Source: a virus
UHGV virus genome: UHGV-1750711
Direction: 5' to 3' (one strand)
DNA length: 22,473 nucleotides
Made by a program: the position numbers and the translations under genes. Below, piece after piece: positions 2,321 through 17,780 of the stretch. The notes under the pieces were generated by a model. It saw only the letters and a list, made by a program, of their open reading frames with translations, was not told the origin of the DNA and made no database searches. Position 1 is the first letter of the stretch. Each line of letters starts with the position of its first letter.

Positions 2321-2396
<76 letters not shown>

Positions 2397-2399
2397 TAT

Positions 2400-2474
<75 letters not shown>

Positions 2475-2775: not shown

Positions 2776-3160
2776 ATTCTGAACCCTAAAAAAAGAAACA
2801 CGGACACTGATAATGCCCGTGTGGCAATGCCATGTAAGTTAGCGATGAATATGGCGCAAAAAAAGCGCGGCCGTCGGATTAACGCCGCGGGACAAAGTCC
2901 ATGAAGAATCATAAGTATTGGCCCCCTTCTGGGGACATGTTCATACTACTAAGCTTCAGAAGTGGTTTAAATCATCAAATTAACCTTAATTTTCGATAAG
3001 TCTTATTTCATTTCTTTGCGCCACATCTGGCGCGCATCAAATAACGCCACGCAAAGGGCATCTGCGGATGCCGGTGCTTTTGACGGGGTGTTTTTTACGG
3101 GCCGCTGGTGGCCATTTTTTGTTTCCATTACACAGCGCCCGCATCTGCGAGGTGGGGGTT

Positions 3161-3376
3161 ATGAAATCCATGGATAAGTTAACAACGGGTGTCGCCTATG
3201 GCACCTCCGCAGGCAGTGCTGGCTACTGGTTTTTACAGTTGCTCGATAGAGTAACTCCGTCACAGTGGGCTGCAATCGGTGTGCTGGGTAGTCTGGTTTT
3301 TGGCCTGCTGACGTACCTGACAAACCTTTATTTCAAGATTAAAGAAGATAAGCGCAAGGCTGCGAGAGGTGAATAA
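3161..3376 (+). CDS. Class II holin/pinholin, phage 21 S21-like, with MKSM dual start
   Basis: Product [71 protein letters not shown] (71 aa) is near-identical to phage 21 S21 as I recall it. Two predicted TM segments. Stop overlaps the endolysin start. The upstream extension from 3068 is rejected. Confidence 0.9.
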
Positions 3377-3873
3377 TGCCTCCATCATTACGAAAAGCCG
3401 TTGCTGCTGCTATTGGTGGCGGAGCAATTGCTATAGCATCAGTGTTAATCACTGGCCCAAGTGGTAACGATGGTCTGGAAGGTGTCAGCTACATACCATA
3501 CAAAGATATTGTTGGTGTATGGACTGTATGTCACGGGCATACAGGAAAAGACATCATGCTCGGTAAAACGTATACCAAAGCAGAATGCAAAGCACTCTTG
3601 AATAAAGACCTTGCCACTGTCGCCAGACAAATTAACCCGTACATCGAAGTCGATATACCGGAAACAACGCGCGGCGCTCTTTACTCATTCGTTTACAACG
3701 TGGGTGCTGGCAATTTCAGAACATCGACGCTTCTTCGCAAAATAAACCAGGGCGATATCAAAGGCGCATGTGATCAGCTACGTCGCTGGACATATGCTGG
3801 CGGTAAGCAATGGAAAGGTCTCATGACTCGTCGTGAGATTGAGCGTGAAATCTGTTTGTGGGGTCAGCAATGA
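3376..3873 (+). CDS. SAR endolysin (lysozyme with N-terminal signal-anchor-release domain, R21-like)
   Basis: 165 aa. N-terminal Gly/Ala-rich weakly hydrophobic segment ([20 protein letters not shown]) followed by a lysozyme-like domain. Directly follows the pinholin and overlaps the Rz start (ATGA). Confidence 0.9.
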
Positions 3874-4172
3874 ACAGAGTAACCGCGATTATCTCCGCTC
3901 TGGTTATCTGCATCATCGTCTGCCTGTCATGGGCTGTTAATCATTACCGTGATAACGCCATTACCTACAAAGCCCAGCGCGACAAAAATGCCAGAGAACT
4001 GAAGCTGGCGAACGCGGCAATTACTGACATGCAGATGCGCCAGCGTGATGTTGCTGCACTGGATGAAAAATACACGAAGGAGTTAGCTAATGCGAAAGCT
4101 GAAAATGATGCTCTGCGTGATGATGTTGCCGCTGGTCGTCGTCGGTTGCACATCCGCCTCCGGCGTGGATAA
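3870..4172 (+). pseudogene. Rz: Rz (i-spanin) N-terminal part, truncated by a frameshifting deletion (rzpR-like)
   Basis: [21 protein letters not shown]... matches lambda Rz through ...AAGRRRLHI, then diverges and stops (RLRRG*). The Rz C-terminal homology ([27 protein letters not shown]...) continues in the +1 frame. Confidence 0.7.
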
Positions 4173-4299
4173 TGCAGCCTCCCCCCGACTGGCAGACACC
4201 GCTGAACGGGATTATTTCACCCTCCGGGAACGACTGGTAATGATGCAGGCCCAACTTGAAGGTGCTCAGCAATACATAACCGAACAGTGTTTAAAGTAA
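4090..4299 (+). pseudogene. Rz1: Chimeric ORF: Rz1 (o-spanin) signal peptide and lipobox fused in frame to the Rz C-terminal coiled-coil segment
   Basis: Starts [22 protein letters not shown] (Rz1 lipoprotein signal, RBS AAGGAG 9 nt upstream), then reads [21 protein letters not shown]...EQCLK, which is Rz C-terminal sequence. The Rz1 C-terminus (PPPDWQTPLNGIISPS) lies in a third frame at 4178-4240. Consistent with a ~35-nt deletion near 4155. Confidence 0.6.
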
Positions 4300-4436
4300 A
4301 ATCTTAACTACAATATGATTCATTTTGATGATTGTTTCATAAGGAACAGTGAAGTAAGATCTAAGAGGAGTTAAATTTTATACAGTATAATCATAATATT
4401 GCAGCAAGGTGGTTATAATTGAAAGAATATTTAGAT

Positions 4437-5894
4437 ATGAATACATCTCATGTAAGAGTTGTTACTCATATGTGTGGGTTTCTGGTTTGGCTCTATAGTC
4501 TTTCAATGTTGCCACCAATGGTTGTAGCATTGTTTTATAAAGAAAAAAGCCTGTTCGTTTTCTTTATAACTTTCGTTATGTTTTTTTGCATTGGTGGCGG
4601 AGCGTGGTATACAACTAAGAAATCTGGCATTCAATTACGTACCCGTGATGGGTTTATTATAATTGTAATGTTTTGGATTTTGTTTTCTGTTATTAGTGCA
4701 TTCCCTTTATGGATTGACTCAGAACTTAATTTAACGTTCATTGATGCTCTGTTTGAAGGGGTTTCTGGAATAACAACAACAGGAGCAACTGTAATTGATG
4801 ATGTTAGTTCATTACCTCGGGCATATTTGTACTATCGGTCACAGTTAAATTTTATAGGTGGTTTAGGAGTTATTGTTCTGGCGGTTGCTGTATTGCCATT
4901 ATTGGGTATTGGTGGTGCAAAGCTTTATCAGTCAGAAATGCCGGGGCCATTTAAGGATGACAAACTCACTCCCCGCCTGGCCGATACGTCACGGACACTG
5001 TGGATAACTTATTCTTTATTAGGTATTGCTTGTATTGTCTGTTATAGACTTGCAGGAATGCCTTTGTTTGATGCTATTTGTCACGGGATTTCCACAGTTT
5101 CGCTTGGTGGTTTCTCAACTCATAGCGAGAGTATCGGATATTTTAATAACTATTTGGTTGAGCTGGTGGCTGGTTCTTTTTCCCTGCTATCGGCTTTCAA
5201 CTTCACTCTTTGGTATATTGTTATTAGCAGGAAAACGATAAAACCTTTAATCAGAGATATTGAACTTCGTTTCTTTCTGTTAATAGCCTTAGGGGTGATC
5301 ATTGTTACCTCTTTCCAGGTCTGGCATATAGGTATGTATGACTTGCATGGAAGTTTTATTCATTCGTTTTTTCTTGCCAGCTCCATGCTCACTGATAATG
5401 GTTTAGCTACGCAGGATTATGCAAACTGGCCCACGCACACGATAGTGTTTTTGCTGTCGTCAAGTTTCTTTGGGGGATGTATAGGTTCAACTTGTGGTGG
5501 AATTAAGTCACTTCGATTTCTTATACTTTTCAAACAAAGCAAACACGAGATAAATCAGCTTTCTCATCCCAGAGCGTTGTTGAGTGTAAATGTAGGAGGG
5601 AAGATAGTTACAGATCGTGTAATGAGGTCTGTATGGAGTTTCTTTTTTCTTTATACTCTCTTCACGGTGTTTTTTATACTGGTGTTAAATGGTATGGGAT
5701 ATGATTTTCTTACATCATTTGCAACAGTGGCTGCATGTATTAATAATATGGGATTAGGTTTTGGGGCTACTGCATCGTCATTCGGAGTGCTTAATGACAT
5801 TGCAAAATATTTAATGTGCATAGCTATGATTCTTGGTCGCCTTGAAATTTATCCTGTTATTATATTGTTTTCAGGTTTTTTTTGGCGCTCCTAA
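4437..5894 (+). CDS. trkG: TrkG/TrkH-family K+ uptake transporter membrane subunit (prophage-borne moron)
   Basis: 485 aa starting MNTSHVRVVTHMCGFLVWLY. Multi-pass membrane protein with repeated selectivity-filter-like GxG motifs (SGITTTGATV, VSLGGFST, IGSTCGGI). Markedly AT-rich against its flanks. Matches E. coli Rac-prophage TrkG as I recall it; the ORF-track start at 4419 is a TTG and is rejected in favour of the ATG at 4437. Confidence 0.9.
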   Translation: MNTSHVRVVTHMCGFLVWLYSLSMLPPMVVALFYKEKSLFVFFITFVMFFCIGGGAWYTTKKSGIQLRTRDGFIIIVMFWILFSVISAFPLWIDSELNLTFIDALFEGVSGITTTGATVIDDVSSLPRAYLYYRSQLNFIGGLGVIVLAVAVLPLLGIGGAKLYQSEMPGPFKDDKLTPRLADTSRTLWITYSLLGIACIVCYRLAGMPLFDAICHGISTVSLGGFSTHSESIGYFNNYLVELVAGSFSLLSAFNFTLWYIVISRKTIKPLIRDIELRFFLLIALGVIIVTSFQVWHIGMYDLHGSFIHSFFLASSMLTDNGLATQDYANWPTHTIVFLLSSSFFGGCIGSTCGGIKSLRFLILFKQSKHEINQLSHPRALLSVNVGGKIVTDRVMRSVWSFFFLYTLFTVFFILVLNGMGYDFLTSFATVAACINNMGLGFGATASSFGVLNDIAKYLMCIAMILGRLEIYPVIILFSGFFWRS

Positions 5895-6030
5895 TATATG
5901 GCTGATTTATAATTGTGAGTTTAATATTATATTGACTCACTCATTGATCCAATACCTAACTTTACCAGCAACACCTCCGCCCCAGTAGCACTGGCTGCTG
6001 GGGTGCGTTTTATTCATAAAGCAAGGCTGT

Positions 6031-6819
6031 ATGAGCGAGAAATTAAAGATAGTCTATCGCCCATTACAAGAATTGTCACCGTATGCGCACAACGCCAGGA
6101 CGCACAGTACTGAGCAGGTGGCACAACTGGTAGAAAGTATTAAGCAATTCGGCTGGACTAATCCGGTGCTGATTGACGAAAAGGGCGAAATTATTGCGGG
6201 TCACGGTCGTGTTATGGCGGCTGAAATGCTCAAAATGGATTCTGTTCCGGTCATTGTTCTGTCTGGCCTGACGGATGAGCAGAAAAAGGCGTACCGCCTG
6301 GCAGATAATCGCCTACCGATGAATGCTGGCTGGGATGAAGATCTGTTGCGGATGGAGCTGTCGGACCTAATCAATGCTGATTTTGATGTCTCCCTGACAG
6401 GCTTCGGCCCGACAGAAATTGATGAACTGTTGACGGATGTTTTGCCCGGTACAGGAAATAAGGAGGAGCCGTATACGACGAAAATTGATACGCCTGTTTA
6501 TGAGCCGTCGGGCGGTAAACCGGATATCAGTGAACTGTATGACGATACGAAAACTCAGGAGCTGATCAGCCGGATACGTTCGGCGTCCCTTGATCCTGAT
6601 ATTGAGAAATTCCTCCTGTGTGCGGCAGAACGTCACACGGTGTTTAATTTCAGCAGAATTGCGGACTATTACGCTCATGCCCCCGCTGAAATTCAGTGCC
6701 TTTTCGAGGAGTCGGCGCTGGTGATCATTGATTATCAGCAGGCTATTGAAAATGGATTTGTCCGAATGACGCAGCGCATGGTGGCGATCATGCATAGCGG
6801 GGAGGAGGAATATGTGTGA
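6031..6819 (+). CDS. ParB/Srx-fold N-terminal domain protein (ParB-like nuclease domain protein)
   Basis: 262 aa. N-terminus has ParB-N-like motifs (PLQELSPYAHNARTH ... IIAGHGRVMAA ... KAYRLADNRL). Stop overlaps the downstream start. Confidence 0.75.
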   Translation: MSEKLKIVYRPLQELSPYAHNARTHSTEQVAQLVESIKQFGWTNPVLIDEKGEIIAGHGRVMAAEMLKMDSVPVIVLSGLTDEQKKAYRLADNRLPMNAGWDEDLLRMELSDLINADFDVSLTGFGPTEIDELLTDVLPGTGNKEEPYTTKIDTPVYEPSGGKPDISELYDDTKTQELISRIRSASLDPDIEKFLLCAAERHTVFNFSRIADYYAHAPAEIQCLFEESALVIIDYQQAIENGFVRMTQRMVAIMHSGEEEYV

Positions 6820-7744
6820 TGATTTTTGCGCCTTTATTCTGACTCACGGGCGACCGGACAAAGTTCTGACTTACCGGACGTTGCGTCGTGCTGGCTATAC
6901 CGGGAAAATTTTTATCGTTGTTGATGATGAAGATAAGACACGGCATCAGTACATGGCTGAATTTGGTGAACAGGTGCTGGTATTTTCCAAAGCCGATATT
7001 GCCAGTCGTTTTGACGAAGCCGATAATTTTGGTGACCACCGCTCAATTTTTTACGCCCGTAATGCCTGTTTCGACCTGGCAAAACTGGTCGGGTGTAAAT
7101 ACTTCATTCAGCTCGATGATGATTATCACGAGTTCCAGTTTCGGGTGGATCGCAACTATGACCAGGCCTATTTCCCGATAAGGAAACTGGATGCGATCCT
7201 TTCTGAAATGCTGGCGTATTACGAATCAATACCCGCGCTTTCCATCGCTATGTCGCAGGGCGGGGATTTTCTTGGTGACAATGGCGGCCATGCTTCGTGG
7301 GTGAAACGCAAGGCAATGAACAGCTTTATCTGTTCGGTTGATCGACCGTTCTCATTCATGGGGCGCATTAACGAGGATGTGAATACGTACACGAATCTCG
7401 GTCGCCGTGGTGAATTGTTTATGACGATCGGTGCTGTCCAGTTAGGGCAGAAACAGACGCAGAAAAACAGCGGCGGAATGACCGAGCTGTATCTGGATTC
7501 CGGGACCTACGTTAAAAGTTTTTATTCCGTCATGTATGCGCCGTCGTGCGTAAAAATCTCACTGATGGGCGCCAGCCATAAACGCATTCACCATCAGGTC
7601 ACCTGGAACAACGCTGCAGTAAAAATCCTTCACGAAAAATACAGGAAGAAGACACCCTGCATATTAATGGGGGTGACAAATGATTCCGTATTCGAAAGTC
7701 GAGTCTCTGGCAGCGTGCCGGATGACTGCACAACAAATCGCTGA
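6812..7744 (+). CDS. Putative GT-A-fold nucleotide-sugar glycosyltransferase-like protein (DXD motif); function unknown
   Basis: Strong RBS GGAGGAGGA before the ATG at 6812. Motif order typical of GT-A folds: AFILTHGRP, IFIVVDDED, FIQLDDDYHEF. No TM segments, so not GtrB-like. The last ~20 codons overlap the next ORF in another frame, so the true 3' end is uncertain. Confidence 0.6.
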   Translation: MCDDFCAFILTHGRPDKVLTYRTLRRAGYTGKIFIVVDDEDKTRHQYMAEFGEQVLVFSKADIASRFDEADNFGDHRSIFYARNACFDLAKLVGCKYFIQLDDDYHEFQFRVDRNYDQAYFPIRKLDAILSEMLAYYESIPALSIAMSQGGDFLGDNGGHASWVKRKAMNSFICSVDRPFSFMGRINEDVNTYTNLGRRGELFMTIGAVQLGQKQTQKNSGGMTELYLDSGTYVKSFYSVMYAPSCVKISLMGASHKRIHHQVTWNNAAVKILHEKYRKKTPCILMGVTNDSVFESRVSGSVPDDCTTNR

Positions 7745-7931
7745 CGTTCTGGATGTTGATCTGAACCGACTGAAAGAAAATCGGGAAGCAATGACAAATT
7801 TTTACGCGTCCATCCGTAAGGGCAGAGCGAAAGGTGAAGCCGAGCTACGGGCGGCATTGTTTAAGCTTGCCAGAAAAGGGGATGCCTTTGCCCTGCGCGA
7901 ACTACTCAGGGTGGATAAAAATCAGGACTAA
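7680..7931 (+). CDS. Hypothetical small protein (83 aa) immediately upstream of the terminase small subunit
   Basis: ORF with SD-like GGGGGTGA before the ATG at 7680. Overlaps the preceding gene by 65 nt. An alternative start at ATG 7722 is possible. Confidence 0.45.
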   Translation: MIPYSKVESLAACRMTAQQIADVLDVDLNRLKENREAMTNFYASIRKGRAKGEAELRAALFKLARKGDAFALRELLRVDKNQD

Positions 7932-7934
7932 CTG

Positions 7935-9029
7935 ATGAGCAGACCGGACTGGGGGGCGTTGCAGCAGGAGTATATTGCTGAATACACCCGCTCCGGTATA
8001 TCTCCGGTGGCATGGTGTGAAGCAAGGGGACTGAATTACGCAACAGCCCGTCGTTACATCAAAAAACCTCCGAAAAATGCGCAGACAGAAATGCGCAAAA
8101 CTGCGCAAAAAAGTGCGCAGAAAAAATCTGCGCAGACTGCACAAAAGCGGAACGGAAAATCTCAGGAAAAAAAGCCAGTATCCGATGCGTACCTGAATGA
8201 GGGCGATGCGGAAGAAATTTCGTTCTGTCCCGATGAATTCGGCGTTTCTGACCAGCAGGCGAAATTCGCAATGCTGGTTGCCCAGGGGAAAAAACTCGTT
8301 GAGGCATATCGCCTGGCAGGATACGAGTCAGAGGGGAATGCGGCCTACGTAACCGCCAGCCAGCTCCTAAGAAATCCTAAGGTTTTTCGTGCTATCAGCT
8401 ACTTCCGCAATCAGTACCAGAAACGCTATACCGCAGACCTGGATTTACTGGTGAGTCAGTTGATGGCCATTGTCCAGGCCGACCCCAATCAGTTGGCACA
8501 ATTTCGCCGTGTTAACTGCCGTTATTGCTGGGGCGAGAATCATCACTACCAGTGGCGCGATATAGCAGAATTCGATAAGGCAGCGGCGCAGGCCTCCAGA
8601 GATGGCAAACCCGAGCCGGAATATGGTGGCCTTGGCTTTGTTGATAACGCCATACCCAATCCGGACTGCCCGAAGTGCTGCGGTGAGGGAACGGGGCAGC
8701 TTTATATGGCTGATACCACTCTGCTTGATGGGGAAGCGCGGCAATTATATGCAGGGGCAAAGCTCGGAAAATTTGGTGTTGAGATCCTGCTGGAGGATAA
8801 GGCTGCCGCCCGGCGTGAATTGTTGCGTTTGCTTGCTGCTGGTGGGGCTTTATGTGCAGATAAGCGGCTACAGGAACTGGAAATTGAACGGCGCAGAATG
8901 GAAAACCAGAAGCTGCGCAAAGAGATCGAAACGGTGGAAGATAATGAACATCCCCAGCCTGTGGCGATCAATATTAATGTGGTTGATGCCAGAGTAAGGA
9001 GTGATGAAGATGATCTCTCCGACGCTTAA
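7935..9029 (+). CDS. Terminase small subunit (N-terminal HTH, basic repeat linker, C-terminal Cys4 zinc-ribbon-like motif)
   Basis: 364 aa. Contains the recognisable TerS segment LVAQGKKLVEAYRLAGY...NAAYVTASQLLRNPKV and C-x2-C...C-x2-C (CRYC ... CPKCC). Lies immediately upstream of the large subunit. Confidence 0.75.
   Translation: MSRPDWGALQQEYIAEYTRSGISPVAWCEARGLNYATARRYIKKPPKNAQTEMRKTAQKSAQKKSAQTAQKRNGKSQEKKPVSDAYLNEGDAEEISFCPDEFGVSDQQAKFAMLVAQGKKLVEAYRLAGYESEGNAAYVTASQLLRNPKVFRAISYFRNQYQKRYTADLDLLVSQLMAIVQADPNQLAQFRRVNCRYCWGENHHYQWRDIAEFDKAAAQASRDGKPEPEYGGLGFVDNAIPNPDCPKCCGEGTGQLYMADTTLLDGEARQLYAGAKLGKFGVEILLEDKAAARRELLRLLAAGGALCADKRLQELEIERRRMENQKLRKEIETVEDNEHPQPVAININVVDARVRSDEDDLSDA
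8077..8146 (+). repeat. Imperfect tandem TGCGCA-R-AAA repeats within terS (encode the basic KSAQK/TAQK linker)
   Basis: TGCGCA recurs at roughly 8079, 8092, 8102, 8114 and 8129 with 10-15 nt spacing. Confidence 0.6.
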
Positions 9030-10311
9030 TGTGCCTCAGGCGCGATTTCTTTCAATGCCCCATAAATTTAAAGCCTATATTGCTGGTTTTGGCTCGGGCA
9101 AAACATGGGTTGGGTGTGGCGGCATATGCAAGGGGATTTGGGAGCATCCAGGTATAAATCAGGGATATTTTGCGCCAACGTATCCCCAAATTCGCGATAT
9201 TTTTTACCCTACAGTGGAAGAAGTTGCTGCTGACTGGGGATTGAACGTAAAAATTAATGAGGGAAATAAAGAGGTTCACTTTTATTACGGACGCCAGTAT
9301 CGGGGAACCACTATCTGCAGATCGATGGAGAAGCCACAAACGATCGTCGGTTTCAAAATTGGTAATGCGTTGGTGGATGAACTGGACATTTTGCCGAAGG
9401 AAAAAGCCAGAACGGCGTGGCGCAAGATAATTGCGCGTATGCGTTATAAGATTGATGGACTTCGCAACGGTATTGACGTTACAACCACGCCGGAAGGATT
9501 CAAATTTGTCTACGAGCAGTTTGTTAAAGCCGTGCGTGAAAAAACAGAGCTGGCCTCACTGTATGGTCTGGTGCAGGCATCTACTTTCGATAATGAAAAG
9601 AACCTGCCAGCAGATTACATTCCTTCGCTTCTTGAATCATACCCTCCAGAGCTGATTAAAGCCTATCTGCGAGGACAGTTTACTAACCTGACAAGTGGTA
9701 CTGTTTACCATCAGTTTGACCGGAAACTGAATAATTGCGAAGAAGTGGAGCAGCCAGGGGAGTCGATTTATATTGGGATGGATTTTAACGTTGGAAAGAT
9801 GGCGGGAATCGTCCATGTGCTGCGTTTGGGGCTTCCATGTGCGGTAACTGAAATCATCAATGCCTACGATACGCCGGATATGATCCGCATCATTAAAGAA
9901 CGCTTCTGGCTGTATGATGGGAATGATTACCGGAAAGTGAGGGAAATTTATATTTATCCAGATGCTTCCGGGGATTCCAGAAAATCAAGTAACGCAAGTA
10001 CGACGGATATAGCCCAGCTTAAGCAGGCTGGTTTTAACGTTGTGGTGAACAGCTCGAACCCGCCAGTAAAAGATCGCGTTAACTCAATGAATGCAATGTT
10101 CTGCAATGCCAATGGTGAGCGTCGCTATAAAGTTAATGTGAAGCGTTGCCCGTTATATGCCGAATCTCTGGAGCAACAGGTCTGGGATGAGAAGGGGGAG
10201 CCTGATAAAAAATCTGGCAATGATCACCCGAATGATGCCGGAGGTTATTTCATCGTTAAGCAATTCCCTATTGTCAAACCGACCGGAAGAGTCACATCAC
10301 TTCGGATTTAA
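9010..10311 (+). CDS. Terminase large subunit (ATPase/nuclease)
   Basis: Walker-A-like AGFGSGKT near the N-terminus. The ATG at 9010 is preferred because AAGGAG sits 8 nt upstream; the ORF track begins at a GTG at 9001. Confidence 0.85.
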   Translation: MISPTLNVPQARFLSMPHKFKAYIAGFGSGKTWVGCGGICKGIWEHPGINQGYFAPTYPQIRDIFYPTVEEVAADWGLNVKINEGNKEVHFYYGRQYRGTTICRSMEKPQTIVGFKIGNALVDELDILPKEKARTAWRKIIARMRYKIDGLRNGIDVTTTPEGFKFVYEQFVKAVREKTELASLYGLVQASTFDNEKNLPADYIPSLLESYPPELIKAYLRGQFTNLTSGTVYHQFDRKLNNCEEVEQPGESIYIGMDFNVGKMAGIVHVLRLGLPCAVTEIINAYDTPDMIRIIKERFWLYDGNDYRKVREIYIYPDASGDSRKSSNASTTDIAQLKQAGFNVVVNSSNPPVKDRVNSMNAMFCNANGERRYKVNVKRCPLYAESLEQQVWDEKGEPDKKSGNDHPNDAGGYFIVKQFPIVKPTGRVTSLRI

Positions 10312-10313
10312 TT

Positions 10314-11720
10314 ATGGCTGATATATCAACACCCAACCTCGACTATAACGATATGCTGGAGGCGTGGGATATTAACGACGCACTGATGGGCGGTACGCTT
10401 GAAATGCGCAGGCAGGGGGAAAATTATCTCCCAAAATGGCCTAACGAAGATGAAGACGCTTATAAAAAACGCCTGTCTGTGGCTACGCTACTTCCTGTGT
10501 ATGAAGAAAGCATTAAGCAAAATATTGGACGCATATTTGCAGAGCCGACAGTATTGAGTGAGGAAACGCCGGAAAAAATCAGGGAATATGCAGAAAATAT
10601 CGACATGGAGGGGAGCCGACTGGATGTGTGGGCGCAGCAATTTTTCAGCCTCGCATTTCAGTATGGTGTGGCACATGCGCTGGTGGACTATCCACGAACG
10701 GATATGAAGGAGATCCGGACAAAAGCCGATGAAAATGCGGCTGGTGGTCGCCCATACGTTACGATGCTGAATCCACGCCAGGTTATTGGATGGAAATCGA
10801 AAGTTGAAAAAGGGAAAGTTGTTCTTACTGATTTGCGTATAAAAGAGGTCATCATTGTTGATGGTGATGATTTCGGGCAGAAGAAGGTGGAGCAGATCCG
10901 CCATATTATGCCCCGTTGCGTTGAAATTTATCGACGCAGCGAAGGTACTAATGGCGAATCTGTCTGGACGCTTCACGAGTCATGGAATACCAGCCGTGAT
11001 GATATTCCTCTGGTAACACTGTATACGAAGAAAACAGGGTTTATGCGTGGTACACCGCCATTGCTTAATCTTGGCTTGCTGAATATCAAGCACTGGCAAA
11101 GCCAGAGCGAGCAGGACAATATTCTTCATGTTGCCCGCGTCCCATTGCTGGTGGCCTACGGGCTGGACAGGAATGAAGAACTGACGGTTGGTGCATCCAC
11201 CGCTACGATTTTTGAGGACAGAACAAAAAATGGCCTCGAATATGTTGAACATAGTGGGGCAGCGATAGAATCTGGCGAAACATCACTGGAGAAGCTGGAA
11301 AATCAAATGCGTCATGCCGGCGCTAAACTTCTGCGGGCTGAAAATACATCCACCAAATCTGTTGATCAGACTAATGAAGAGCGGATGCAGGAAAACTCGC
11401 CGCTTTATACAATGGCGAACTCCCTCGAAGATGCCCTCGATAATATTCTCCAGATAATGGCGGAATGGATCGGAGAGAGTTGCGGCGGCAATGTGGATGT
11501 GCGCACTGAACTGGATGTATCTGCCCAGGTGTTTGACTCATCCTCCGCGCTGGCTGTTCAGTCATTGCGTCAGGGCGGTGATATACGTCAGATTGATGCG
11601 GTTCGGGTGTTGCAGGCGTTGAAATTTATCGATCAGGATTCCCGTCCAGAGGAAGTGATCGATGAATTAAAAAATCAGAGTGTAATGCTGATGGAAATCA
11701 ATGATGCAAACCGTGAATGA
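10314..11720 (+). CDS. Portal protein
   Basis: 468-aa ORF immediately after terL and before the head morphogenesis gene. Assigned mainly by conserved gene order. Confidence 0.7.
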   Translation: MADISTPNLDYNDMLEAWDINDALMGGTLEMRRQGENYLPKWPNEDEDAYKKRLSVATLLPVYEESIKQNIGRIFAEPTVLSEETPEKIREYAENIDMEGSRLDVWAQQFFSLAFQYGVAHALVDYPRTDMKEIRTKADENAAGGRPYVTMLNPRQVIGWKSKVEKGKVVLTDLRIKEVIIVDGDDFGQKKVEQIRHIMPRCVEIYRRSEGTNGESVWTLHESWNTSRDDIPLVTLYTKKTGFMRGTPPLLNLGLLNIKHWQSQSEQDNILHVARVPLLVAYGLDRNEELTVGASTATIFEDRTKNGLEYVEHSGAAIESGETSLEKLENQMRHAGAKLLRAENTSTKSVDQTNEERMQENSPLYTMANSLEDALDNILQIMAEWIGESCGGNVDVRTELDVSAQVFDSSSALAVQSLRQGGDIRQIDAVRVLQALKFIDQDSRPEEVIDELKNQSVMLMEINDANRE

Positions 11721-12816
11721 ACGGCTGCGTGATGAATCAATTGCTCATGCAGTCTGGATATCTCGCTATAGCACTGGTGTGGCTGCCAGAATGGTGAAAA
11801 CACTGAATGTCAGCGATGCGGAGCTTACATCTCGCCTGTTGGTGGCACTGGACAGCCTCGATCCAAGTAGTTTCACCGTTACGCGCCTGGAGTCACTTCT
11901 GGCGAGTGTCAGAGAGGTTAACCGCGCTGCTATTAACAGCATGTTTACCAGTCTCTCCGGAGAGCTGAACGAGCTGGCAGTTTATGAGGCTGGTTATCAG
12001 TTAAGTCTGTTTGATTCTCTGCTACCTGATTTTGTTGCTGATGTTCATCCTCTGGTTGGTATCTCACCTGATGCACTTTATGCTGCTGCAATGGCGCGAC
12101 CATTCCAGGGACGACTGCTCAGTGAGTGGGCCTCAGATCTTGAGGCGGATCGGCTCAGACGCATAACAAATACGGTGCGTCAGGGTTTTTTGTTGGGGGA
12201 TACCAATGAGCAGATCGCAAGAAAAATTCGGGGACATGTCAGTAAGGGATTTCAGGATGGTGCATTGCAGATGAGTCGGGCTAATGCGGCCAGCATTGCA
12301 AAAACAGCGGTTGGACATCTTGCTGCTACTGCCCGTGAGAGTTTTGCCAGCGCGAATAATGATTTGATTAAGGGTAAGCAATGGTTATCAACGCTTGATA
12401 ATCGTACTACGCCACAATGTCGAATCAGGGATCGCCTCAAATATACGCTGGATAATAAACCTGTAGGTCACAGCGTGCCTTATTTACAGGGGCCGGGGAA
12501 AATTCATTTCTGCTGTCGCTCAACGGAAACGTTCATTCTGAAATCAGCGAAGGAACTGGGTATTGATGTTCGTGATATTTCCCCGGCTGAGCGGGCCAGC
12601 ATGGATGGCGTGGTGGCCGGAGATACAACCTACAGGGAATGGTTTTTGCGCCAGCCTTACACCAGACAAAAAAAGATTGTGGGGGAAACCCGGGCAAAGC
12701 TGATTCGGGATGGCGGTATGTCGCCAGATGAATTTTACACCGATAAAGGCGAATGGCTGACACTGAAGCAACTCCGAGAGCGTGATGCACAGGCATTCAG
12801 AAAAGCAGGGATTTAA
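11701..12816 (+). CDS. Head morphogenesis / minor capsid protein (Mu F / SPP1 gp7-like)
   Basis: 371-aa ORF following the portal gene; start overlaps the portal stop. Assigned by position and general resemblance. Confidence 0.6.
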   Translation: MMQTVNERLRDESIAHAVWISRYSTGVAARMVKTLNVSDAELTSRLLVALDSLDPSSFTVTRLESLLASVREVNRAAINSMFTSLSGELNELAVYEAGYQLSLFDSLLPDFVADVHPLVGISPDALYAAAMARPFQGRLLSEWASDLEADRLRRITNTVRQGFLLGDTNEQIARKIRGHVSKGFQDGALQMSRANAASIAKTAVGHLAATARESFASANNDLIKGKQWLSTLDNRTTPQCRIRDRLKYTLDNKPVGHSVPYLQGPGKIHFCCRSTETFILKSAKELGIDVRDISPAERASMDGVVAGDTTYREWFLRQPYTRQKKIVGETRAKLIRDGGMSPDEFYTDKGEWLTLKQLRERDAQAFRKAGI

Positions 12817-12836
12817 ATAAATCCTTTATTACAACA

Positions 12837-12862
12837 GGCTACCTTCGGGTGGCCTTTTTTAT
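12837..12862 (+). terminator. Intrinsic terminator/attenuator between head morphogenesis and scaffold genes
   Basis: GGCTACC-TTCG-GGTGGCC hairpin (7 bp with one G-U pair, TTCG tetraloop) followed by TTTTTTATT. Confidence 0.55.
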
Positions 12863-12920
12863 TGCTGCGATCCGGATGGTGAGCAGCGCAACTGTCGGAA
12901 GACTTAAACCAGGTACTAAT

Positions 12921-13685
12921 ATGAAACTGAAAACGGTCGAGATTAACGGAAAACAATACGCAGAAATTGATACTGCTGGCCTGCCAGTCTATGTGCACGA
13001 CGATGGTAAAGAAATCGGCTTCGATGCACCGCTGGCGACAAAAAAAATTACAGAGCTTAATGGCGAGGCAAAAAATCATCGCCTGGCTAAAGAAGCTGCA
13101 GAGGAAAAACTGGCTAAGTTTGCCGCTATCGAAGACCCGAAGAAGGCGATTGAGGCACTGGAAATGCTGTCAAAAATCGACCAGAAAAAGCTGATCGGTG
13201 CGGGACAGGTTGACCAGGTTAAGGCAGAAATTACGAAAAATTTTCAGCAGCAATTAGATGAAGAAAAGCAACGCTCTCAGATGCTGGAGACGCAGCTTTA
13301 CGATTCTATGATTGGCGGTAGTTTTGCGGGTTCAAAATATATTGCCGATAAAATTGCGATCCCGGCAGATTTATTACAAGCCCGCTTCGGGCAGGCATTC
13401 AAAGTGGAAGAAGGGAAGATCGTTGCTTATGACGCTTCCGGCAACAAAATTTATTCCCGCGCGAAGCCTGGCGAACTGGCGCAGTTTGATGAGGCGCTGG
13501 AGTTCCTCGTCGAAAATTACCCTCAGAAAGACTACATCCTGAAAGCCAGTGGCAACAATGGCGGCGGCTCCCGTCCGACACAGCATGATATTGGTCAGAA
13601 AACGATGAAACGCTCTGCTTTTGATGCACTGGATGTTGCAGGTAAGCAAAACGCATTGAAAGACGGTATCACAATTGTTGATTAA
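12921..13685 (+). CDS. Scaffolding protein
   Basis: 254-aa acidic, Lys/Glu/Ala-rich, coiled-coil-like protein (EAAEEKLAKFAAIEDPKKAIEALEMLSKIDQKK) immediately upstream of the capsid gene. ATG at 12921; the upstream extension in the ORF track spans the terminator and is rejected. Confidence 0.65.
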   Translation: MKLKTVEINGKQYAEIDTAGLPVYVHDDGKEIGFDAPLATKKITELNGEAKNHRLAKEAAEEKLAKFAAIEDPKKAIEALEMLSKIDQKKLIGAGQVDQVKAEITKNFQQQLDEEKQRSQMLETQLYDSMIGGSFAGSKYIADKIAIPADLLQARFGQAFKVEEGKIVAYDASGNKIYSRAKPGELAQFDEALEFLVENYPQKDYILKASGNNGGGSRPTQHDIGQKTMKRSAFDALDVAGKQNALKDGITIVD

Positions 13686-13783
13686 CACATTTGTCAGCTT
13701 CCGGATGGGAGCTGGTGTCAGGGCTGGATAGCTCATTACTCCATCTATTCACAATTACGCAAATTTTTAAGGAATATTTAATT

Positions 13784-14923
13784 ATGGCTGGAAATACCCT
13801 GACCGGGTTGATCCCGACTATTTACACCGCCCTGGATGTTGTATCCCGTGAGCAGGTAGGTTTTATCCCTGCGGTAGCAAAAAACGCAAAAGCTGACGCC
13901 GCAGCAAAAGATCAGACGGTAACCGCGTCAGTTGCGCCTGAGGCGAAAACCGAAGATATCGTACCGGGGCCGTCAGCTCCGAATACCGGTGATCAAAATA
14001 TTGGCACTGTTGATGTAAAAATTACTAAATCCAAAATGGCGCCGGTTAAATGGAATGGTGAAGAACAACTGGCTCTTGGCCCTTCAGGGACTTACAACAC
14101 CATTCTGGCTGATCAGTTCAAGCAGGCTTTTCGCGCCCTTGCAAACGAGGTTGAGGCTGATCTTGGTGCGTTGTATTTCGGTGCTTCCCGCGCCGTGGGA
14201 ACCGCAGGGACAACGCCGTTTGGTGTTAAAGATGATCTTTCTGATGCTGCTCTGGCTCGTCAGGTTCTGGAGGATAACGGCGCACCGACAACAGATCTGC
14301 AGATGGTGCTTGGTTCCACTGCCATTGCTAATTTGCGCGGAAAACAGTCTGTATTGTTTAAAGTGAATGAATCCGGCACTGAACAGCTACTGCGTGAGGG
14401 CGTGTTGGGGCGTCTGGAGGGATTCAATATTCACAGTTCGGCAGGTGTAAAACGAGCGCCAAAGGTTGCTGCAACAGGTTATCTCGTGAATGGCGAGAAA
14501 AAAGAAGGCGATGTTCTTATTTCCATTGATACTGGTTCGGGGAGTATTTCTGCAGGTCAGATTGTTACGTTCGCTGGCGATCCGAATCAGTATGTTGTGG
14601 CAGCAGCGACCAGCAATCTGATTACTCTTGCAGCGCCGGGACTGCGTCAGGATCTGGCCGATGATACTGCAATCACAGTTGTTGGCTCTTTTACTGCAAA
14701 TATGGCGTTTGATCGCAACGCGTTTCTGCTGGCATCCCGTACTCCGGCAATGCCGGAAGGTGGCGATAATGCTGATGATGTAATGAATGTTACGGACCCG
14801 ATTTCAGGGATTACGTTCCAGATTGCACTGTATCGTCAGTATCGCCAGGTGCGCTATGAAGTTGGACTGGCATGGGGTGTTTCGTCAGTGAAACCGGCAC
14901 ATGGTTGTCTGATTCTTGGTTAA
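13784..14923 (+). CDS. Major capsid protein
   Basis: 379 aa from the ATG at 13784 with RBS AAGGA. Follows the scaffold and is followed by a strong terminator, as expected for a highly expressed coat gene. Confidence 0.8.
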   Translation: MAGNTLTGLIPTIYTALDVVSREQVGFIPAVAKNAKADAAAKDQTVTASVAPEAKTEDIVPGPSAPNTGDQNIGTVDVKITKSKMAPVKWNGEEQLALGPSGTYNTILADQFKQAFRALANEVEADLGALYFGASRAVGTAGTTPFGVKDDLSDAALARQVLEDNGAPTTDLQMVLGSTAIANLRGKQSVLFKVNESGTEQLLREGVLGRLEGFNIHSSAGVKRAPKVAATGYLVNGEKKEGDVLISIDTGSGSISAGQIVTFAGDPNQYVVAAATSNLITLAAPGLRQDLADDTAITVVGSFTANMAFDRNAFLLASRTPAMPEGGDNADDVMNVTDPISGITFQIALYRQYRQVRYEVGLAWGVSSVKPAHGCLILG

Positions 14924-14929
14924 ACATCC

Positions 14930-14955
14930 AAATGGGGCTTCGGCCCCATTTTTAA
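14930..14955 (+). terminator. Strong intrinsic terminator/attenuator after the capsid gene
   Basis: AAATGGGGC-TTCG-GCCCCATTT perfect hairpin with tetraloop, followed by a T-run. Confidence 0.7.
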
Positions 14956-14965
14956 TGGAGGGTAT

Positions 14966-15190
14966 ATGGCCGGATTAACTAAAGAGCAAAGAGCACAGCG
15001 TGAAGCCGCGCAAAAAAATGCAGTGGTGGAGCAAAATGTGGAGCAAATTCAGGAGCCACAAAAAACGCAAATTGAGTTAGTGGTTATGGTGACCGATTAT
15101 CAGATGTTTCCCGGCGCACCAACTATCGCTAATGTTCATCCTGATGAAGTTGACAACTGGAAGGCTCTGGGCTGGAAAACTCAGGAGTAA
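14966..15190 (+). CDS. Hypothetical small head-associated protein (74 aa)
   Basis: RBS GGAGGG upstream of the ATG. Position between capsid and connector genes. Confidence 0.55.
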   Translation: MAGLTKEQRAQREAAQKNAVVEQNVEQIQEPQKTQIELVVMVTDYQMFPGAPTIANVHPDEVDNWKALGWKTQE

Positions 15191-15193
15191 CAC

Positions 15194-15589
15194 ATGATCA
15201 CTTACGTGACCTGTGATGACGTTGATAATGCGTTTGGGAACGCCTGGACGAGTGAGAACGCTAAAAATAAAGCTGTTTTAATGGCTAATGCCTGGCTTAA
15301 TGGCTTCAGCCTGAAAATTAACCCATCCCGTATTCCGGAAGAGGTAAAACTTGCGGGAGCATATGCAGCCAGAATTGCCTCTGTCGGTAAGTTGTTTCAG
15401 CAGAAAAATGATTCAGGCGTTATTATCAGTAAAGCCGTGTCGGCTGACGGGGTCAGTGTATCGAAATCATTTGCTGAATTGCCAGCAAACAGCACTGCAT
15501 TGCTTGAACCCGATTTACAGCTTGCGATAGCACTGCTGAAACCGTACGGACTTAGTCGCTCACAAGTCAGGGTTGTGAGGGGGGGATGA
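15194..15589 (+). CDS. Head-tail connector/adaptor protein (gp6-like, putative)
   Basis: 131-aa ORF with RBS AGGAG. Function assigned from position in the morphogenesis module. Confidence 0.55.
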   Translation: MITYVTCDDVDNAFGNAWTSENAKNKAVLMANAWLNGFSLKINPSRIPEEVKLAGAYAARIASVGKLFQQKNDSGVIISKAVSADGVSVSKSFAELPANSTALLEPDLQLAIALLKPYGLSRSQVRVVRGG

Positions 15590-16742: not shown

Positions 16743-16768
16743 CGCAATTAATGACATAGGAGGCTCCT

Positions 16769-17719: not shown

Positions 17720-17780
17720 GGCGATTAGTTGATTTTCCGTTATTCCTCCTGTGGTACTGCCCTACAGGGGGACGCATTGA

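What the first reader, a model, noticed from the sequence alone, without database searches (positions are those of the whole stretch)
6031..7744. ParB/Srx-like protein coupled to a GT-A-like (DXD) protein between the lysis and packaging modules: candidate DNA-modification or anti-defence module
Two overlapping genes (stop and start overlap at 6812-6819, strong RBS) sit in the moron hotspot between lysis genes and terS. The first has ParB-N/Srx-fold motifs (GHGRVMAA and others). The second shows the beta-strand/acidic pattern of GT-A nucleotide-sugar transferases (IFIVVDDED, FIQLDDDYHEF), has no TM helices, and has no methyltransferase motifs. A soluble glycosyltransferase-like enzyme paired with a ParB-fold NTP-binding or nuclease domain next to the packaging genes would fit a phage DNA modification or counter-defence function. 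I cannot place either protein in a characterised system from memory.
Basis: partly seen in the sequence, partly recalled or inferred. Interest (0 to 1): 0.75.

Follow-up and report, generated by a model that had tools for sequence, protein, structure and literature searches.

The report
Phage sugar-transferase with ParB-like partner
Two overlapping genes at the head of the DNA-packaging block of an E. coli Rac-type prophage encode a sugar-transferring enzyme and its obligatory ParB-like partner; the pair recurs in phages of many bacterial phyla and in an archaeal virus, probably puts sugars on phage DNA, and does so without the enzyme that normally makes the attachment point, so its target is unknown.

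Summary
Window 6031-6819 encodes a ParB/Srx protein (YnaK) and 6812-7744 a GT-A glycosyltransferase of Pfam family TAGT (PF20691, 126 bits). The genes overlap by 8 nt behind a strong ribosome-binding site.

The window is an intact Rac-type prophage. K-12 lacks window 6285-17890, and so lacks the enzyme.

The pair is not a moron. In 47 of 47 informative loci from many phyla, and in four phage genomes including an archaeal virus, a YnaK-type gene abuts the TAGT gene, usually just upstream of terminase genes of several unrelated families.

The strongly conserved part of YnaK is an unannotated acidic C-terminal domain (residues 148-245). All 80 viral loci carrying it also carry TAGT. A 191-kb Vibrio phage keeps this domain alone.

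YnaK's N-terminal module is the one fused to phage DNA methyltransferases. UDP-glucose 4-epimerase and other donor-synthesis genes are inserted beside the pair in some loci.

I saw no TET/JBP oxygenase.

Best reading (confidence about 0.5): partner-dependent glycosylation of phage DNA late in infection, on an unknown acceptor. This matches the "ParB-terminase locus" prediction of Iyer et al. 2013, and no experimental test turned up in the library searched. I rate it a new variant of a known kind.

The parts
6031..6819 (+). ynaK-type gene: 262-aa partner protein, ParB/Srx N-terminal module plus a TAGT-specific C-terminal domain
   Evidence: PF02195 at 29.3 bits; phrog_620 at 3e-90. Foldseek matches to Noc/ParB/PadC/KorB at E about 1e-6. 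A YnaK-type gene lies immediately upstream of TAGT in 47 of 47 informative loci.
6031..6453 (+). Residues 1-141: ParB/Srx nucleotide-binding-type module, the same module that is fused to phage DNA methyltransferases
   Evidence: phrog_498 'DNA methyltransferase' at 3.7e-51. PADLOC MTase_II N-terminus at 1e-38. tblastn hits in 496 phage records, many annotated as adenine methyltransferases. Box I N21/R23; box II GHGR in place of GERR; box III D92-N93. The box II arginine is not conserved across the family.
6472..6765 (+). Residues 148-245: unannotated, acidic, strongly conserved C-terminal domain, the TAGT-specific partner domain
   Evidence: Invariant residues Y148, P155, Y157, L195, R201, H202, A211, Y214, S228, L230, D234, A238, G242. 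No Pfam or PDB sequence match. 1192 representatives in the 50%-identity library. 80 of 80 viral loci with this domain also carry TAGT. It occurs alone, without ParB_N, beside TAGT in Vibrio phage pv27. Median pI 4.4.
6799..6819 (+). Translational-coupling junction: SD GGGGAGGAGGA (6799-6809), TAGT start ATG 6812-6814, ynaK stop TGA 6817-6819
   Evidence: Read directly from the sequence. The same stop/start overlap or abutment is seen in nearly all related loci.
6812..7744 (+). GT-A glycosyltransferase of the TAGT family (PF20691). The conserved core is residues 1 to about 283 (6812-7660); 7661-7744 is a lineage-specific read-through tail
5978..6005 (+). Terminator-like hairpin (12-bp stem, T-rich tail) between trkG and ynaK (context)
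   Evidence: It sets the trkG moron apart from the late packaging block.
7680..7931 (+). Small ORF (83 aa here; RefSeq starts it at 7722) with similarity to part of a small terminase subunit; first gene after the pair (context)
   Evidence: phrog_309 at 2.5e-22. Annotated as hypothetical in RefSeq. An 85-aa ORF occupies the same position in Pantoea and Serratia loci.
7935..10311 (+). terS (7935-9029) and terL (9001-10311): the packaging genes that the pair precedes (context)
   Evidence: Terminase_2 at 1.7e-9; Terminase_6N at 3.7e-33 and Terminase_6C at 3.4e-10.

Best explanation
The two genes encode a two-component glycosyltransferase, presumably expressed late with the packaging genes it precedes.

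The 283-residue core of the second protein is a GT-A, DxD-type enzyme of the TAGT family. It takes a sugar from a nucleotide-sugar, most likely a UDP-hexose.

The first protein, YnaK, is its obligate partner. YnaK's acidic, strongly conserved C-terminal domain (residues 148-245) is inferred to bind the basic enzyme, and to activate it or complete its acceptor site. YnaK's N-terminal ParB/Srx module is the module that phages fuse to DNA methyltransferases. It is inferred to bring the enzyme to double-stranded phage DNA around the time of packaging, much as a ParB-like protein is needed for a phage thymine dioxygenase to act on dsDNA.

The proposed outcome is sugar-modified virion DNA that resists host nucleases at the next infection.

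Shown here: the folds, the family membership, the catalytic motif, the obligate and reciprocal gene linkage, the position beside the packaging genes, purifying selection, and donor-synthesis genes inserted in some loci.

Inferred: physical contact between the two proteins, DNA as the acceptor, and a protective role.

Unknown: the acceptor atom. No hydroxymethyl-pyrimidine-forming enzyme was seen with the pair.

For: 2. Real sugar transfer. In other loci, GalE equivalogs (416 and 303 bits against a cut-off of 262), a sugar-1-phosphate nucleotidyltransferase, and a histidine-phosphatase/cytidylyltransferase fusion are inserted inside or next to the pair.

3. Obligate partner. A YnaK-type gene abuts TAGT in 47 of 47 informative loci from one-genome-per-species contigs and in 4 of 4 phage genomes. 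All 80 viral loci with the C-terminal domain carry TAGT downstream. Vibrio phage pv27 has the C-terminal domain alone beside TAGT. TAGT is basic (median pI 8.6) and the partner acidic (4.6).

4. DNA link. YnaK residues 1-141 match the N-terminal module of phage DNA methyltransferases. The pair precedes terminases of at least four Pfam families, in cos and pac types, in siphoviruses and a myovirus, and in bacterial and archaeal hosts. DNA is the obvious constant among these phages. In pv27 the pair sits among primase, exonuclease and helicase genes.

5. Known TAGT members act on DNA-borne hydroxyls (PMC13390438). A phage ParB-like protein activates a DNA dioxygenase specifically on dsDNA (PMC13229309). 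ParB-terminase loci have been predicted to modify DNA at packaging (PMC4738411, PMC8256090).
Against: No acceptor-generating enzyme was found. There is no TET/JBP within 10 kb in any Pfam-labelled context returned by four look-ups. None appears in the top-25 family lists for 411 flanking ORFs, and none among the larger unknown ORFs of the complete 31.8-kb phage c5. Canonical DNA has no free hydroxyl on its bases.

The partner is strongly acidic and lacks a recognisable helix-turn-helix DNA-binding domain. Its box II arginine is lost in several family members.

The eukaryotic TAGT relative GREB1 glycosylates a protein (PMC7968844).

No biochemical or genetic data exist for any member of this pair.
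Confidence: 0.5

Rival explanations
1. The acceptor is a protein, not DNA. The enzyme O-glycosylates its own partner, for example the invariant Tyr148 or Tyr157 in the predicted disordered linker in a glycogenin-like manner, or it glycosylates another phage or host protein. ParB localisation would then only place the reaction near the DNA or the packaging machinery.
For: GREB1, the eukaryotic TAGT relative, O-GlcNAcylates ER-alpha (PMC7968844). The motif Y-x6-P-x-Y is invariant and lies in a segment with pLDDT below 50. No DNA acceptor-forming enzyme is present. Glycogenin is among the structural neighbours, though only as a generic GT-A fold.
Against: Terminase, portal and capsid families differ between carriers, so no phage structural or packaging protein is a constant candidate acceptor. 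Only the partner itself is constant. The donor-sugar diversification seen here (GalE, nucleotidyltransferases) is more typical of arms-race surfaces such as DNA than of a regulatory protein mark. The N-terminal module is shared with DNA methyltransferases.
Confidence: 0.2
2. This is ordinary hydroxymethyl-pyrimidine glycosylation. The acceptor (5hmC or 5hmU) is made by an enzyme encoded elsewhere in the phage, or by a divergent oxygenase or radical enzyme not recognised here.
For: All characterised phage and kinetoplastid TAGT relatives act on hydroxymethyl-pyrimidine or on a sugar attached to it (PMC13390438; Pfam family name). A radical-SAM gene lies directly beside TAGT in three anaerobe-associated loci and could be an oxygen-independent acceptor-forming enzyme. 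Weak single TET/JBP hits could be hidden below the top-25 lists.
Against: The complete 31.8-kb c5 and 38-kb phi jlb1 genomes have no such gene annotated. None of the larger unknown c5 ORFs tested hits any Pfam family. The 22-kb window has none. No TET_JBP appears in any Pfam-labelled context returned by the four look-ups. The radical-SAM gene is absent from most loci, including this window.
Confidence: 0.12
3. The enzyme acts on a small molecule, either a nucleotide bound by the ParB/Srx domain or a host immune signalling nucleotide. The pair would then be a counter-defence or nucleotide-pool device rather than a DNA modifier.
For: The ParB/Srx fold binds NTPs. Residues equivalent to CTP-contacting R23, R60 and N93 are present in the E. 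coli protein. The pair is widely mobile among phages.
Against: The nucleotide-binding residues are not conserved across the family, and the ParB module is absent altogether in Vibrio phage pv27. Nothing here points to a signalling-nucleotide link. PADLOC returns only the methyltransferase-type N-terminal match.
Confidence: 0.08
4. The two genes are functionally separate. ParB is a packaging accessory or nuclease that helps the terminase recognise or cut DNA, and the glycosyltransferase is a lysogenic-conversion enzyme acting on the cell envelope.
For: ParB-like 'nuclease' genes often sit beside terminase genes (annotations). Prophage glycosyltransferases that alter O-antigen are well known (established knowledge of Gtr systems).
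Against: The linkage is reciprocal and near-absolute, with overlapping reading frames, across Gram-negative, Gram-positive and archaeal hosts whose envelopes have nothing in common. The conserved part of the partner is the C-terminal domain, not the ParB domain. The pair also occurs away from terminase genes. No GtrA- or GtrC-like genes are adjacent.
Confidence: 0.05

Closest known systems
ParB-terminase ('ParB-Tls') DNA-modification loci of phages and prophages, predicted computationally by Iyer, Zhang, Burroughs and Aravind, NAR 2013 (as cited in PMC4738411 and PMC8256090)
   Same: A ParB-family gene, a DNA-modifying-type enzyme gene and the terminase genes lie in one block. TAGT is one of the enzyme families named in that work. 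The proposed role is modification of phage DNA in connection with packaging.
   Different: I could not read the 2013 paper here, so I cannot say whether the oxygenase-free ParB-TAGT form, the conserved C-terminal domain or its stand-alone version were described. No experimental test of this form turned up in the library searched.
ParB-dependent thymine dioxygenases (5mYOX) of phages (O'Toole et al., PNAS 2026, PMC13229309)
   Same: A ParB-like protein with a nucleotide-binding-type domain and a C-terminal domain, and no obvious DNA-binding domain, is encoded beside a post-replicative DNA-modifying enzyme. It is needed for that enzyme to act on dsDNA. Pairs are cognate-specific, and the nucleotide-binding residues are dispensable there and poorly conserved here.
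   Different: The partner enzyme here is a glycosyltransferase, not a dioxygenase, and no 5mYOX is present. I could not test whether the two C-terminal domains are homologous because no sequences were available.
Characterised TAGT-family DNA glycosyltransferases: the T2/T6 beta-glucosyl-HMC alpha-glucosyltransferase and the TET-associated glycosyltransferases of phages (PMC13390438, PMC8256090, bioRxiv 10.1101/2023.12.21.572611)
   Same: The same Pfam family (PF20691), a GT-A fold and a nucleotide-sugar donor.
   Different: Those enzymes work on 5-hydroxymethyl-pyrimidine, or on a glucose already attached to it. That acceptor is supplied by a hydroxymethylase or a TET/JBP oxygenase, and no ParB partner has been reported for them. 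The T6 enzyme scores only 35.8 bits on PF20691 against 125.6 bits here, and shows no profile alignment to this clade. The PHROG label 'beta-glucosyl-HMC-alpha-glucosyltransferase' carried by this clade is therefore an over-transfer.
Phage DNA methyltransferases with an N-terminal ParB-like domain
   Same: The first 141 residues of YnaK are homologous to their N-terminal module at 30-53% identity. Several of the sampled hits sit at or near a genome end or around 12-13 kb; I did not check their neighbouring genes.
   Different: In those proteins the module is covalently fused to the enzyme. Here it is fused to a small adaptor domain and the enzyme is a separate, translationally coupled protein.
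GREB1, the animal TAGT-domain protein (PMC7968844)
   Same: A TAGT-type glycosyltransferase domain. RefSeq names the E. coli protein 'GREB1-related'.
   Different: GREB1 is a large cytoplasmic protein that O-GlcNAcylates a transcription factor. It has no ParB partner and no viral context.

Membership tests
TAGT, TET-associated glycosyltransferase (Pfam PF20691) | Sequence match to the family profile above its gathering score | tested here: met
   125.6 bits against a cut-off of 27.5, E 3.4e-36, residues 8-222. The best BFVD structural neighbours are TAGT proteins, TM 0.72-0.79.
TAGT, TET-associated glycosyltransferase (Pfam PF20691) | GT-A fold with an acidic DxD metal/nucleotide-sugar motif | tested here: met
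TAGT, TET-associated glycosyltransferase (Pfam PF20691) | Genomic association with a TET/JBP (5mYOX) oxygenase or another hydroxymethyl-pyrimidine source | tested here: not met
   None in the window. None in any Pfam-labelled context from four look-ups. None in the top-25 lists for 411 flanking ORFs. None in complete phage c5. Weak single hits below the list cut-off cannot be excluded.
TAGT, TET-associated glycosyltransferase (Pfam PF20691) | Glycosylation of a DNA-borne hydroxyl group | not testable with these tools
   Needs nucleoside mass spectrometry or an enzyme assay.
ParB/Srx superfamily (PF02195 ParB_N) | Profile match and ParB/Srx fold of the N-terminal domain | tested here: met
   29.3 bits against a cut-off of 26.3. 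A family profile hits Spo0J, Noc and ParB chains at 3e-10 to 6e-8. Foldseek E about 1e-6 to Noc, ParB, PadC and KorB.
Chromosome/plasmid-partition ParB (CTP-dependent clamp) | Intact CTP-binding boxes (box II GERRxRA arginine patch, box III ENxxR) | tested here: inconclusive
   Box II is GHGR in E. coli: the catalytic Glu is replaced by His and only one Arg remains. That Arg is replaced in several family members. N21, R23 and N93 are retained in the window protein.
Chromosome/plasmid-partition ParB (CTP-dependent clamp) | Helix-turn-helix parS-binding domain, C-terminal dimerisation domain, and a ParA partner | tested here: not met
   No HTH family hit. The C-terminal half is a different, family-specific domain. 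No ParA gene lies nearby. The protein is acidic, pI 4.6.
ParB-terminase DNA-modification locus (Iyer et al. 2013, as cited in PMC4738411) | A ParB-family gene and a DNA-modification-type enzyme gene adjacent to the phage terminase genes | tested here: met
   The window order is ynaK, TAGT, small ORF, terS, terL. The same order recurs with Terminase_6, Terminase_3, GpA and TerL_ATPase families.
ParB-dependent 5mYOX system (PMC13229309) | A cognate 5-methylpyrimidine dioxygenase partner | tested here: not met
   No dioxygenase found. The partner is a glycosyltransferase.
T2/T6 beta-glucosyl-HMC alpha-glucosyltransferase (the label carried by phrog_842) | Close sequence relationship to the T6 enzyme, and a phage that makes hydroxymethylcytosine (dCMP hydroxymethylase, alpha-glucosyltransferase) | tested here: not met
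   hhalign of the clade profile against T6 ggt gives probability 0.2. No T-even phage appears among the tblastn hits. No gp42-like or alpha-gt gene is present here, whereas both flank ggt in T6.
Gtr-type serotype-converting prophage glycosyltransferases | Membrane-associated GtrB with GtrA flippase and GtrC genes, next to the integrase | tested here: not met
   The neighbours are trkG and terminase genes. There are no GtrA- or GtrC-like genes. No formal transmembrane prediction was run.

The most novel reading that the evidence does not exclude
The TAGT enzyme together with the YnaK C-terminal domain is a self-sufficient two-subunit enzyme that puts a hexose on DNA at a position other than a hydroxymethyl-pyrimidine. 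That could be an exocyclic amine or another site on a canonical or host-methylated base. It would be a previously undescribed DNA modification, carried by prophages detected in about 30% of complete E. coli genomes (near-full-length in about 16%) and by phages of many phyla and of haloarchaea. In some anaerobe phages a linked radical-SAM enzyme might extend the chemistry.
Probability: 0.25. Interest if true: 0.9.

Novelty: new variant of a known kind. Interest (0 to 1): 0.6.

Why it matters
Phage DNA glycosylation is a classic counter-defence. It is also the target of type IV restriction enzymes. Every characterised case starts from a hydroxymethylated or hydroxylated pyrimidine.

A published survey found that about 65% of phage contigs carrying related glycosyltransferases lack any such starting enzyme nearby, and left them unexplained. 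This pair is a large, sharply defined subset of that group. It comes with a specific partner domain, a fixed gene arrangement and, in some loci, dedicated sugar-donor genes. It is present in an organism where it can be tested at once.

K-12 has lost the enzyme through an 11.6-kb deletion, which gives a clean background. ATCC 8739 and about 870 other complete genomes hold a near-full-length copy of this region.

If the target is DNA, the result would be either a new modification chemistry or a hidden source of acceptor bases. It would also extend the emerging idea that ParB-fold proteins are activators of DNA-modifying enzymes from dioxygenases to glycosyltransferases. If the target is a protein, this would be a new kind of phage protein glycosylation tied to DNA packaging.

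Tried and rejected
- **Iyer et al. 2013 (NAR gkt573)** is not held in the library. I used only what later papers say about it.
- **Literature searches** for ynaK, ydaY and for ParB with glycosyltransferase and terminase gave no functional study.
- **My recollection that K-12 ydaY is the glycosyltransferase remnant was wrong.** K-12 has a deletion of window 6285-17890. Its ynaK is the first 85 codons or so, and ydaY reads across the junction.
- **Sequence searches of solved structures** gave nothing for TAGT (best E 0.55) and nothing for the C-terminal domain.
- **AF2 modelled the C-terminal domain and the linker poorly** (pLDDT 30-78). I drew no fold conclusion for it.
- **A direct TET/JBP screen of all flanking ORFs was not possible.** The family tool shows only the 25 commonest families per batch, and I had no seed sequences. 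The supplements of the two PNAS papers are not held, and the file titles of the preprint's tables did not suggest sequences, so I did not open them.
- **Regular-expression hunts for C5-methyltransferase motifs failed**. One was identified by Pfam instead.
- **No fusion proteins joining the C-terminal domain to a full TAGT** appeared among the 150 best representatives.
- **End-capping of DNA was considered and set aside.** The pair occurs in cos phages, which in lambda-type phages (established knowledge) reseal their cohesive ends by ligation after injection, as well as with headful-type terminase families.
- **No parS-like repeat stood out** around the pair.
- **A defence-system role was set aside.** PADLOC gave only the methyltransferase-type N-terminal match.
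Full report
**What is in the window.**
ORF 6031-6819 (262 aa) and ORF 6812-7744 (310 aa) lie on the + strand and overlap by 8 nt. The first gene's stop TGA is at 6817-6819 and the second gene's ATG is at 6812-6814. GGGGAGGAGGA sits at 6799-6809.

The surrounding order is:
- lysis genes (3068-4299)
- trkG (about 4419-5894)
- a terminator-like hairpin (5978-6005)
- the pair
- a small ORF (7680/7722-7931)
- terS (7935-9029)
- terL (9001-10311)
- head and tail genes

The stretch 5900-7950 is 100% identical to several E. coli chromosomes. It is found in 1610 of 5426 complete E. coli genomes, 867 of them with at least 80% coverage. There the first gene is annotated ynaK and the second 'hypothetical' or 'GREB1-related protein'.

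This is the intact form of the Rac prophage family. In K-12 MG1655 the sequence matches up to window 6284 and resumes at 17891. K-12 therefore keeps only the first 85 codons or so of ynaK and has lost the glycosyltransferase, the terminase genes and the head genes.

**The two proteins.**
Protein 2 matches Pfam PF20691, TET-associated glycosyltransferase, at 3.4e-36, and phrog_842 at 2.9e-102.

An alignment from E. coli to Lactobacillus, Nocardia and Haloarcula viruses (38-48% identity to the window protein) keeps these motifs invariant:
- DDD 102-104
- N187 and D189 (E188 nearly invariant)
- TQ 216-217
- G222 and T224 of the GGMT motif
- KSFY 235-238
- R258, H260 and H261

dN/dS against 94-96%-identical alleles is 0.06-0.07. 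Residues 284-310 are a read-through tail that is absent in close relatives.

Protein 1 passes the ParB_N threshold. Its first 140 residues or so model like the CTP-binding domains of Noc, ParB, PadC and KorB. Box II is GHGR instead of GERR.

Those 141 residues are also the N-terminal module of many phage DNA methyltransferases: phrog_498 at 3.7e-51, PADLOC MTase_II at 1e-38, and 496 phage records by tblastn.

**The pair is an obligate unit, and the key part of the partner is a new domain.**
I scanned one genome per species with the TAGT alignment. This returned 51 loci from Proteobacteria, Chlorobi, Desulfobacterota, Bacteroidota, Firmicutes, Negativicutes, Actinobacteria, Verrucomicrobia, Kiritimatiellae and others.

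In all 47 loci that have an intact 5' end of TAGT and some upstream DNA, a YnaK-type ORF ends at or overlaps the TAGT start. The same holds in phages c5, phi jlb1, NTR1 and the haloarchaeal virus HHTV-2.

Across these partners the ParB domain is only loosely conserved, and the box II arginine is lost in several. Residues 148-245 are far better conserved, with invariant Y148, P155, Y157, L195, R201, H202, A211, Y214, S228, L230, D234, A238 and G242.

This C-terminal domain has no Pfam family and no relative among solved structures. It has 1192 representatives in the 50%-identity library, nearly all of them 250-310-aa proteins with the domain at the C-terminus.

I then searched viral contigs with the C-terminal domain alone. 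All 80 returned loci carry TAGT downstream, 70 abutting and 10 with a single gene inserted between.

In the 191-kb Vibrio phage pv27 the gene before TAGT encodes only this domain (139 aa, hhalign probability 100%). There the pair sits among primase, exonuclease and helicase genes.

TAGT is basic (median pI 8.6) and the partner acidic (median 4.6; C-terminal domain 4.4).

I infer that the C-terminal domain is the enzyme's obligatory subunit and that the ParB module is an added targeting part.

**Context.**
Within three genes downstream of the pair I found large terminase subunits of at least four Pfam families:
- Terminase_6N, 16 ORFs
- Terminase_3, 11 ORFs
- GpA, 6 ORFs
- TerL_ATPase, 2 ORFs
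- T7-type, 3 ORFs

Portals of several families also occur there. The carriers include cos phages: c5 has an annotated cos site 80 nt before the pair, and other loci have HNH-associated HK97-type blocks. They also include headful-type terminases and a myovirus.

Genes for sugar-donor synthesis are inserted in or next to the pair in independent lineages:
- A GalE equivalog lies after TAGT in L143/L144.
- GalE plus a mannose-1-phosphate-guanylyltransferase-like gene lie before ParB in a Virgibacillus plasmid (L099).
- A histidine-phosphatase/cytidylyltransferase fusion lies between ParB and TAGT in eight viral contigs.
- A roughly 320-aa radical-SAM protein lies beside TAGT in three loci, two of which are from the gut anaerobes Phascolarctobacterium and Bacteroides.

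They argue for a working nucleotide-sugar transferase whose donor varies between phages.

**What is missing.**
No TET/JBP dioxygenase was seen in any of these places:
- any Pfam-labelled neighbourhood (plus or minus 10 kb) returned by four look-ups
- the 25 commonest families among 411 flanking ORFs
- the window itself
- the larger unknown ORFs of the complete 31.8-kb phage c5

The batch lists hide rare weak hits, so single exceptions are possible.

The T6 enzyme that gives phrog_842 its label is only a weak TAGT member (35.8 bits) and does not align to this clade's profile. In T6 it sits next to dCMP hydroxymethylase, which has no counterpart here. The label 'beta-glucosyl-HMC-alpha-glucosyltransferase' on these genes is therefore an over-transfer.

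**How it most likely works.**
The enzyme uses a UDP-hexose. The partner's C-terminal domain binds the enzyme and activates it or completes it. The ParB module holds the complex on replicated phage DNA late in infection. The DNA that gets packaged carries sugars.

Three arguments point to DNA:
- The module is shared with DNA methyltransferases.
- The pair lies beside packaging genes, or beside replication genes in pv27.
- DNA is the obvious substrate common to carriers that differ in host domain, virion type and terminase family.

The nearest experimental precedent is the phage thymine dioxygenase that needs its ParB-like protein only on dsDNA (PMC13229309). The nearest prediction is the 'ParB-terminase locus' idea of Iyer et al. 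2013 (via PMC4738411 and PMC8256090).

The weak point is the acceptor. Canonical bases have no hydroxyl group. The partner is acidic and has no recognisable DNA-binding domain. The animal relative GREB1 glycosylates a protein (PMC7968844).

I put DNA glycosylation at about 0.5. The rivals are a protein acceptor (including self-glycosylation of the partner at the invariant tyrosines) at 0.2, an unrecognised hydroxymethyl-pyrimidine source at about 0.12, a small-molecule acceptor at about 0.08, and two unrelated functions at 0.05.

**Novelty and verdict.**
The enzyme family, the ParB association and the packaging-linked DNA-modification hypothesis are already in the literature as predictions. 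A 2023 survey explicitly left glycosyltransferases without a neighbouring oxygenase or hydroxymethylase unexplained (bioRxiv 10.1101/2023.12.21.572611).

New here are:
- the near-absolute and reciprocal linkage
- the conserved partner domain and its stand-alone form
- the donor-gene insertions
- the apparent absence of an acceptor-forming enzyme
- the fact that K-12 lacks the system while many E. coli strains have it intact

I class it as a new variant of a known kind. Interest is moderate to high because a simple experiment in E. coli could reveal either a new DNA modification or a new type of phage protein glycosylation.

Noticed in passing
window 4419-6005: trkG (potassium transporter, PF02386 at 1e-143) sits between the lysis genes and the packaging block. 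It is followed by a strong terminator-like hairpin at 5978-6005 (12-bp stem). This looks like a classic moron insertion.
   Followed up: partly
window 6285-17890 versus K-12 MG1655 (L147): K-12 Rac carries an 11.6-kb deletion with these end points. K-12 'ynaK' (87 aa) is only the N-terminal fragment of the ParB-like gene. 'ydaY' is an ORF that starts inside the ynaK remnant and runs across the deletion junction, not a glycosyltransferase remnant.
   Followed up: yes
window 7661-7744: The last 27 codons or so of the glycosyltransferase gene are a read-through tail that overlaps the next ORF. Alleles 94-95% identical have a stop after '...TPC' at residue 283.
   Followed up: yes
window 8078-8140 (inside terS): Five copies of GCGCA(G/A)A lie 10-14 nt apart, and they also form short hairpins on the minus strand. 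This may be a pac or TerS-binding repeat, or simply the coding of a repetitive AQK-rich segment.
   Followed up: no
window 3858-4299: The Rz spanin gene looks frameshifted. One ORF runs 3858-4172, and an Rz1-like lipoprotein ORF in another frame runs 4090-4299. A related genome (L001) has a single 465-nt gene there. K-12 annotates rzpR as a pseudogene.
   Followed up: partly
window 2321-2474: tRNA-Thr(TGT) and tRNA-Gly(TCC) lie upstream of the lysis genes.
   Followed up: no
L228 5459-5878 (Vibrio phage pv27): A 139-aa protein consists only of the YnaK C-terminal domain and lies directly before TAGT in a replication-gene block of a 191-kb phage. About 26 of the 150 best library representatives of the domain are also shorter than 200 aa; some of these may be fragments.
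   Followed up: partly
L148 936-1904; L124 8840-9799; L136 384-1349: A radical-SAM protein of about 320 aa from one family (CxxxCxxC motif, weak SPASM/twitch signal) is inserted between ParB and TAGT in one locus and directly after TAGT in two. Two of the three loci are from the gut anaerobes Phascolarctobacterium and Bacteroides. It could be an oxygen-independent acceptor-forming or sugar-modifying enzyme.
   Followed up: partly
L152 3320-4315 and seven similar loci; L167 2572-4254: A histidine-phosphatase plus cytidylyltransferase-like fusion gene is inserted between ParB and TAGT. In L167 it appears to be fused in frame to the ParB gene (560-aa ORF).
   Followed up: partly
L143 3418-4380; L099 5581-7244: UDP-glucose 4-epimerase (GalE equivalog, above the NCBIfam cut-off) lies directly beside the pair in two unrelated loci. 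In the Virgibacillus plasmid pCBA3643-01 it is accompanied by a mannose-1-phosphate-guanylyltransferase-like gene.
   Followed up: yes
L118 2964-4631 (and L110, L111, L112, L114): A C5-cytosine DNA methyltransferase lies about 5 kb upstream of the pair in a group of Kiritimatiellae- and Bacteroidota-type prophages. RusA and other genes separate it from the pair, and no oxygenase lies between.
   Followed up: partly
L141 17837-20316: Four consecutive GT2-type glycosyltransferase genes follow the capsid gene in a metagenomic phage that also has the ParB-TAGT pair. This may be virion glycosylation.
   Followed up: no
phrog_842 and RefSeq phage records (for example NC_019449, NC_024206, NC_021340): Members of this clade are labelled 'beta-glucosyl-HMC-alpha-glucosyltransferase' although their phages encode no hydroxymethylcytosine pathway. 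This is a probable annotation over-transfer.
   Followed up: yes
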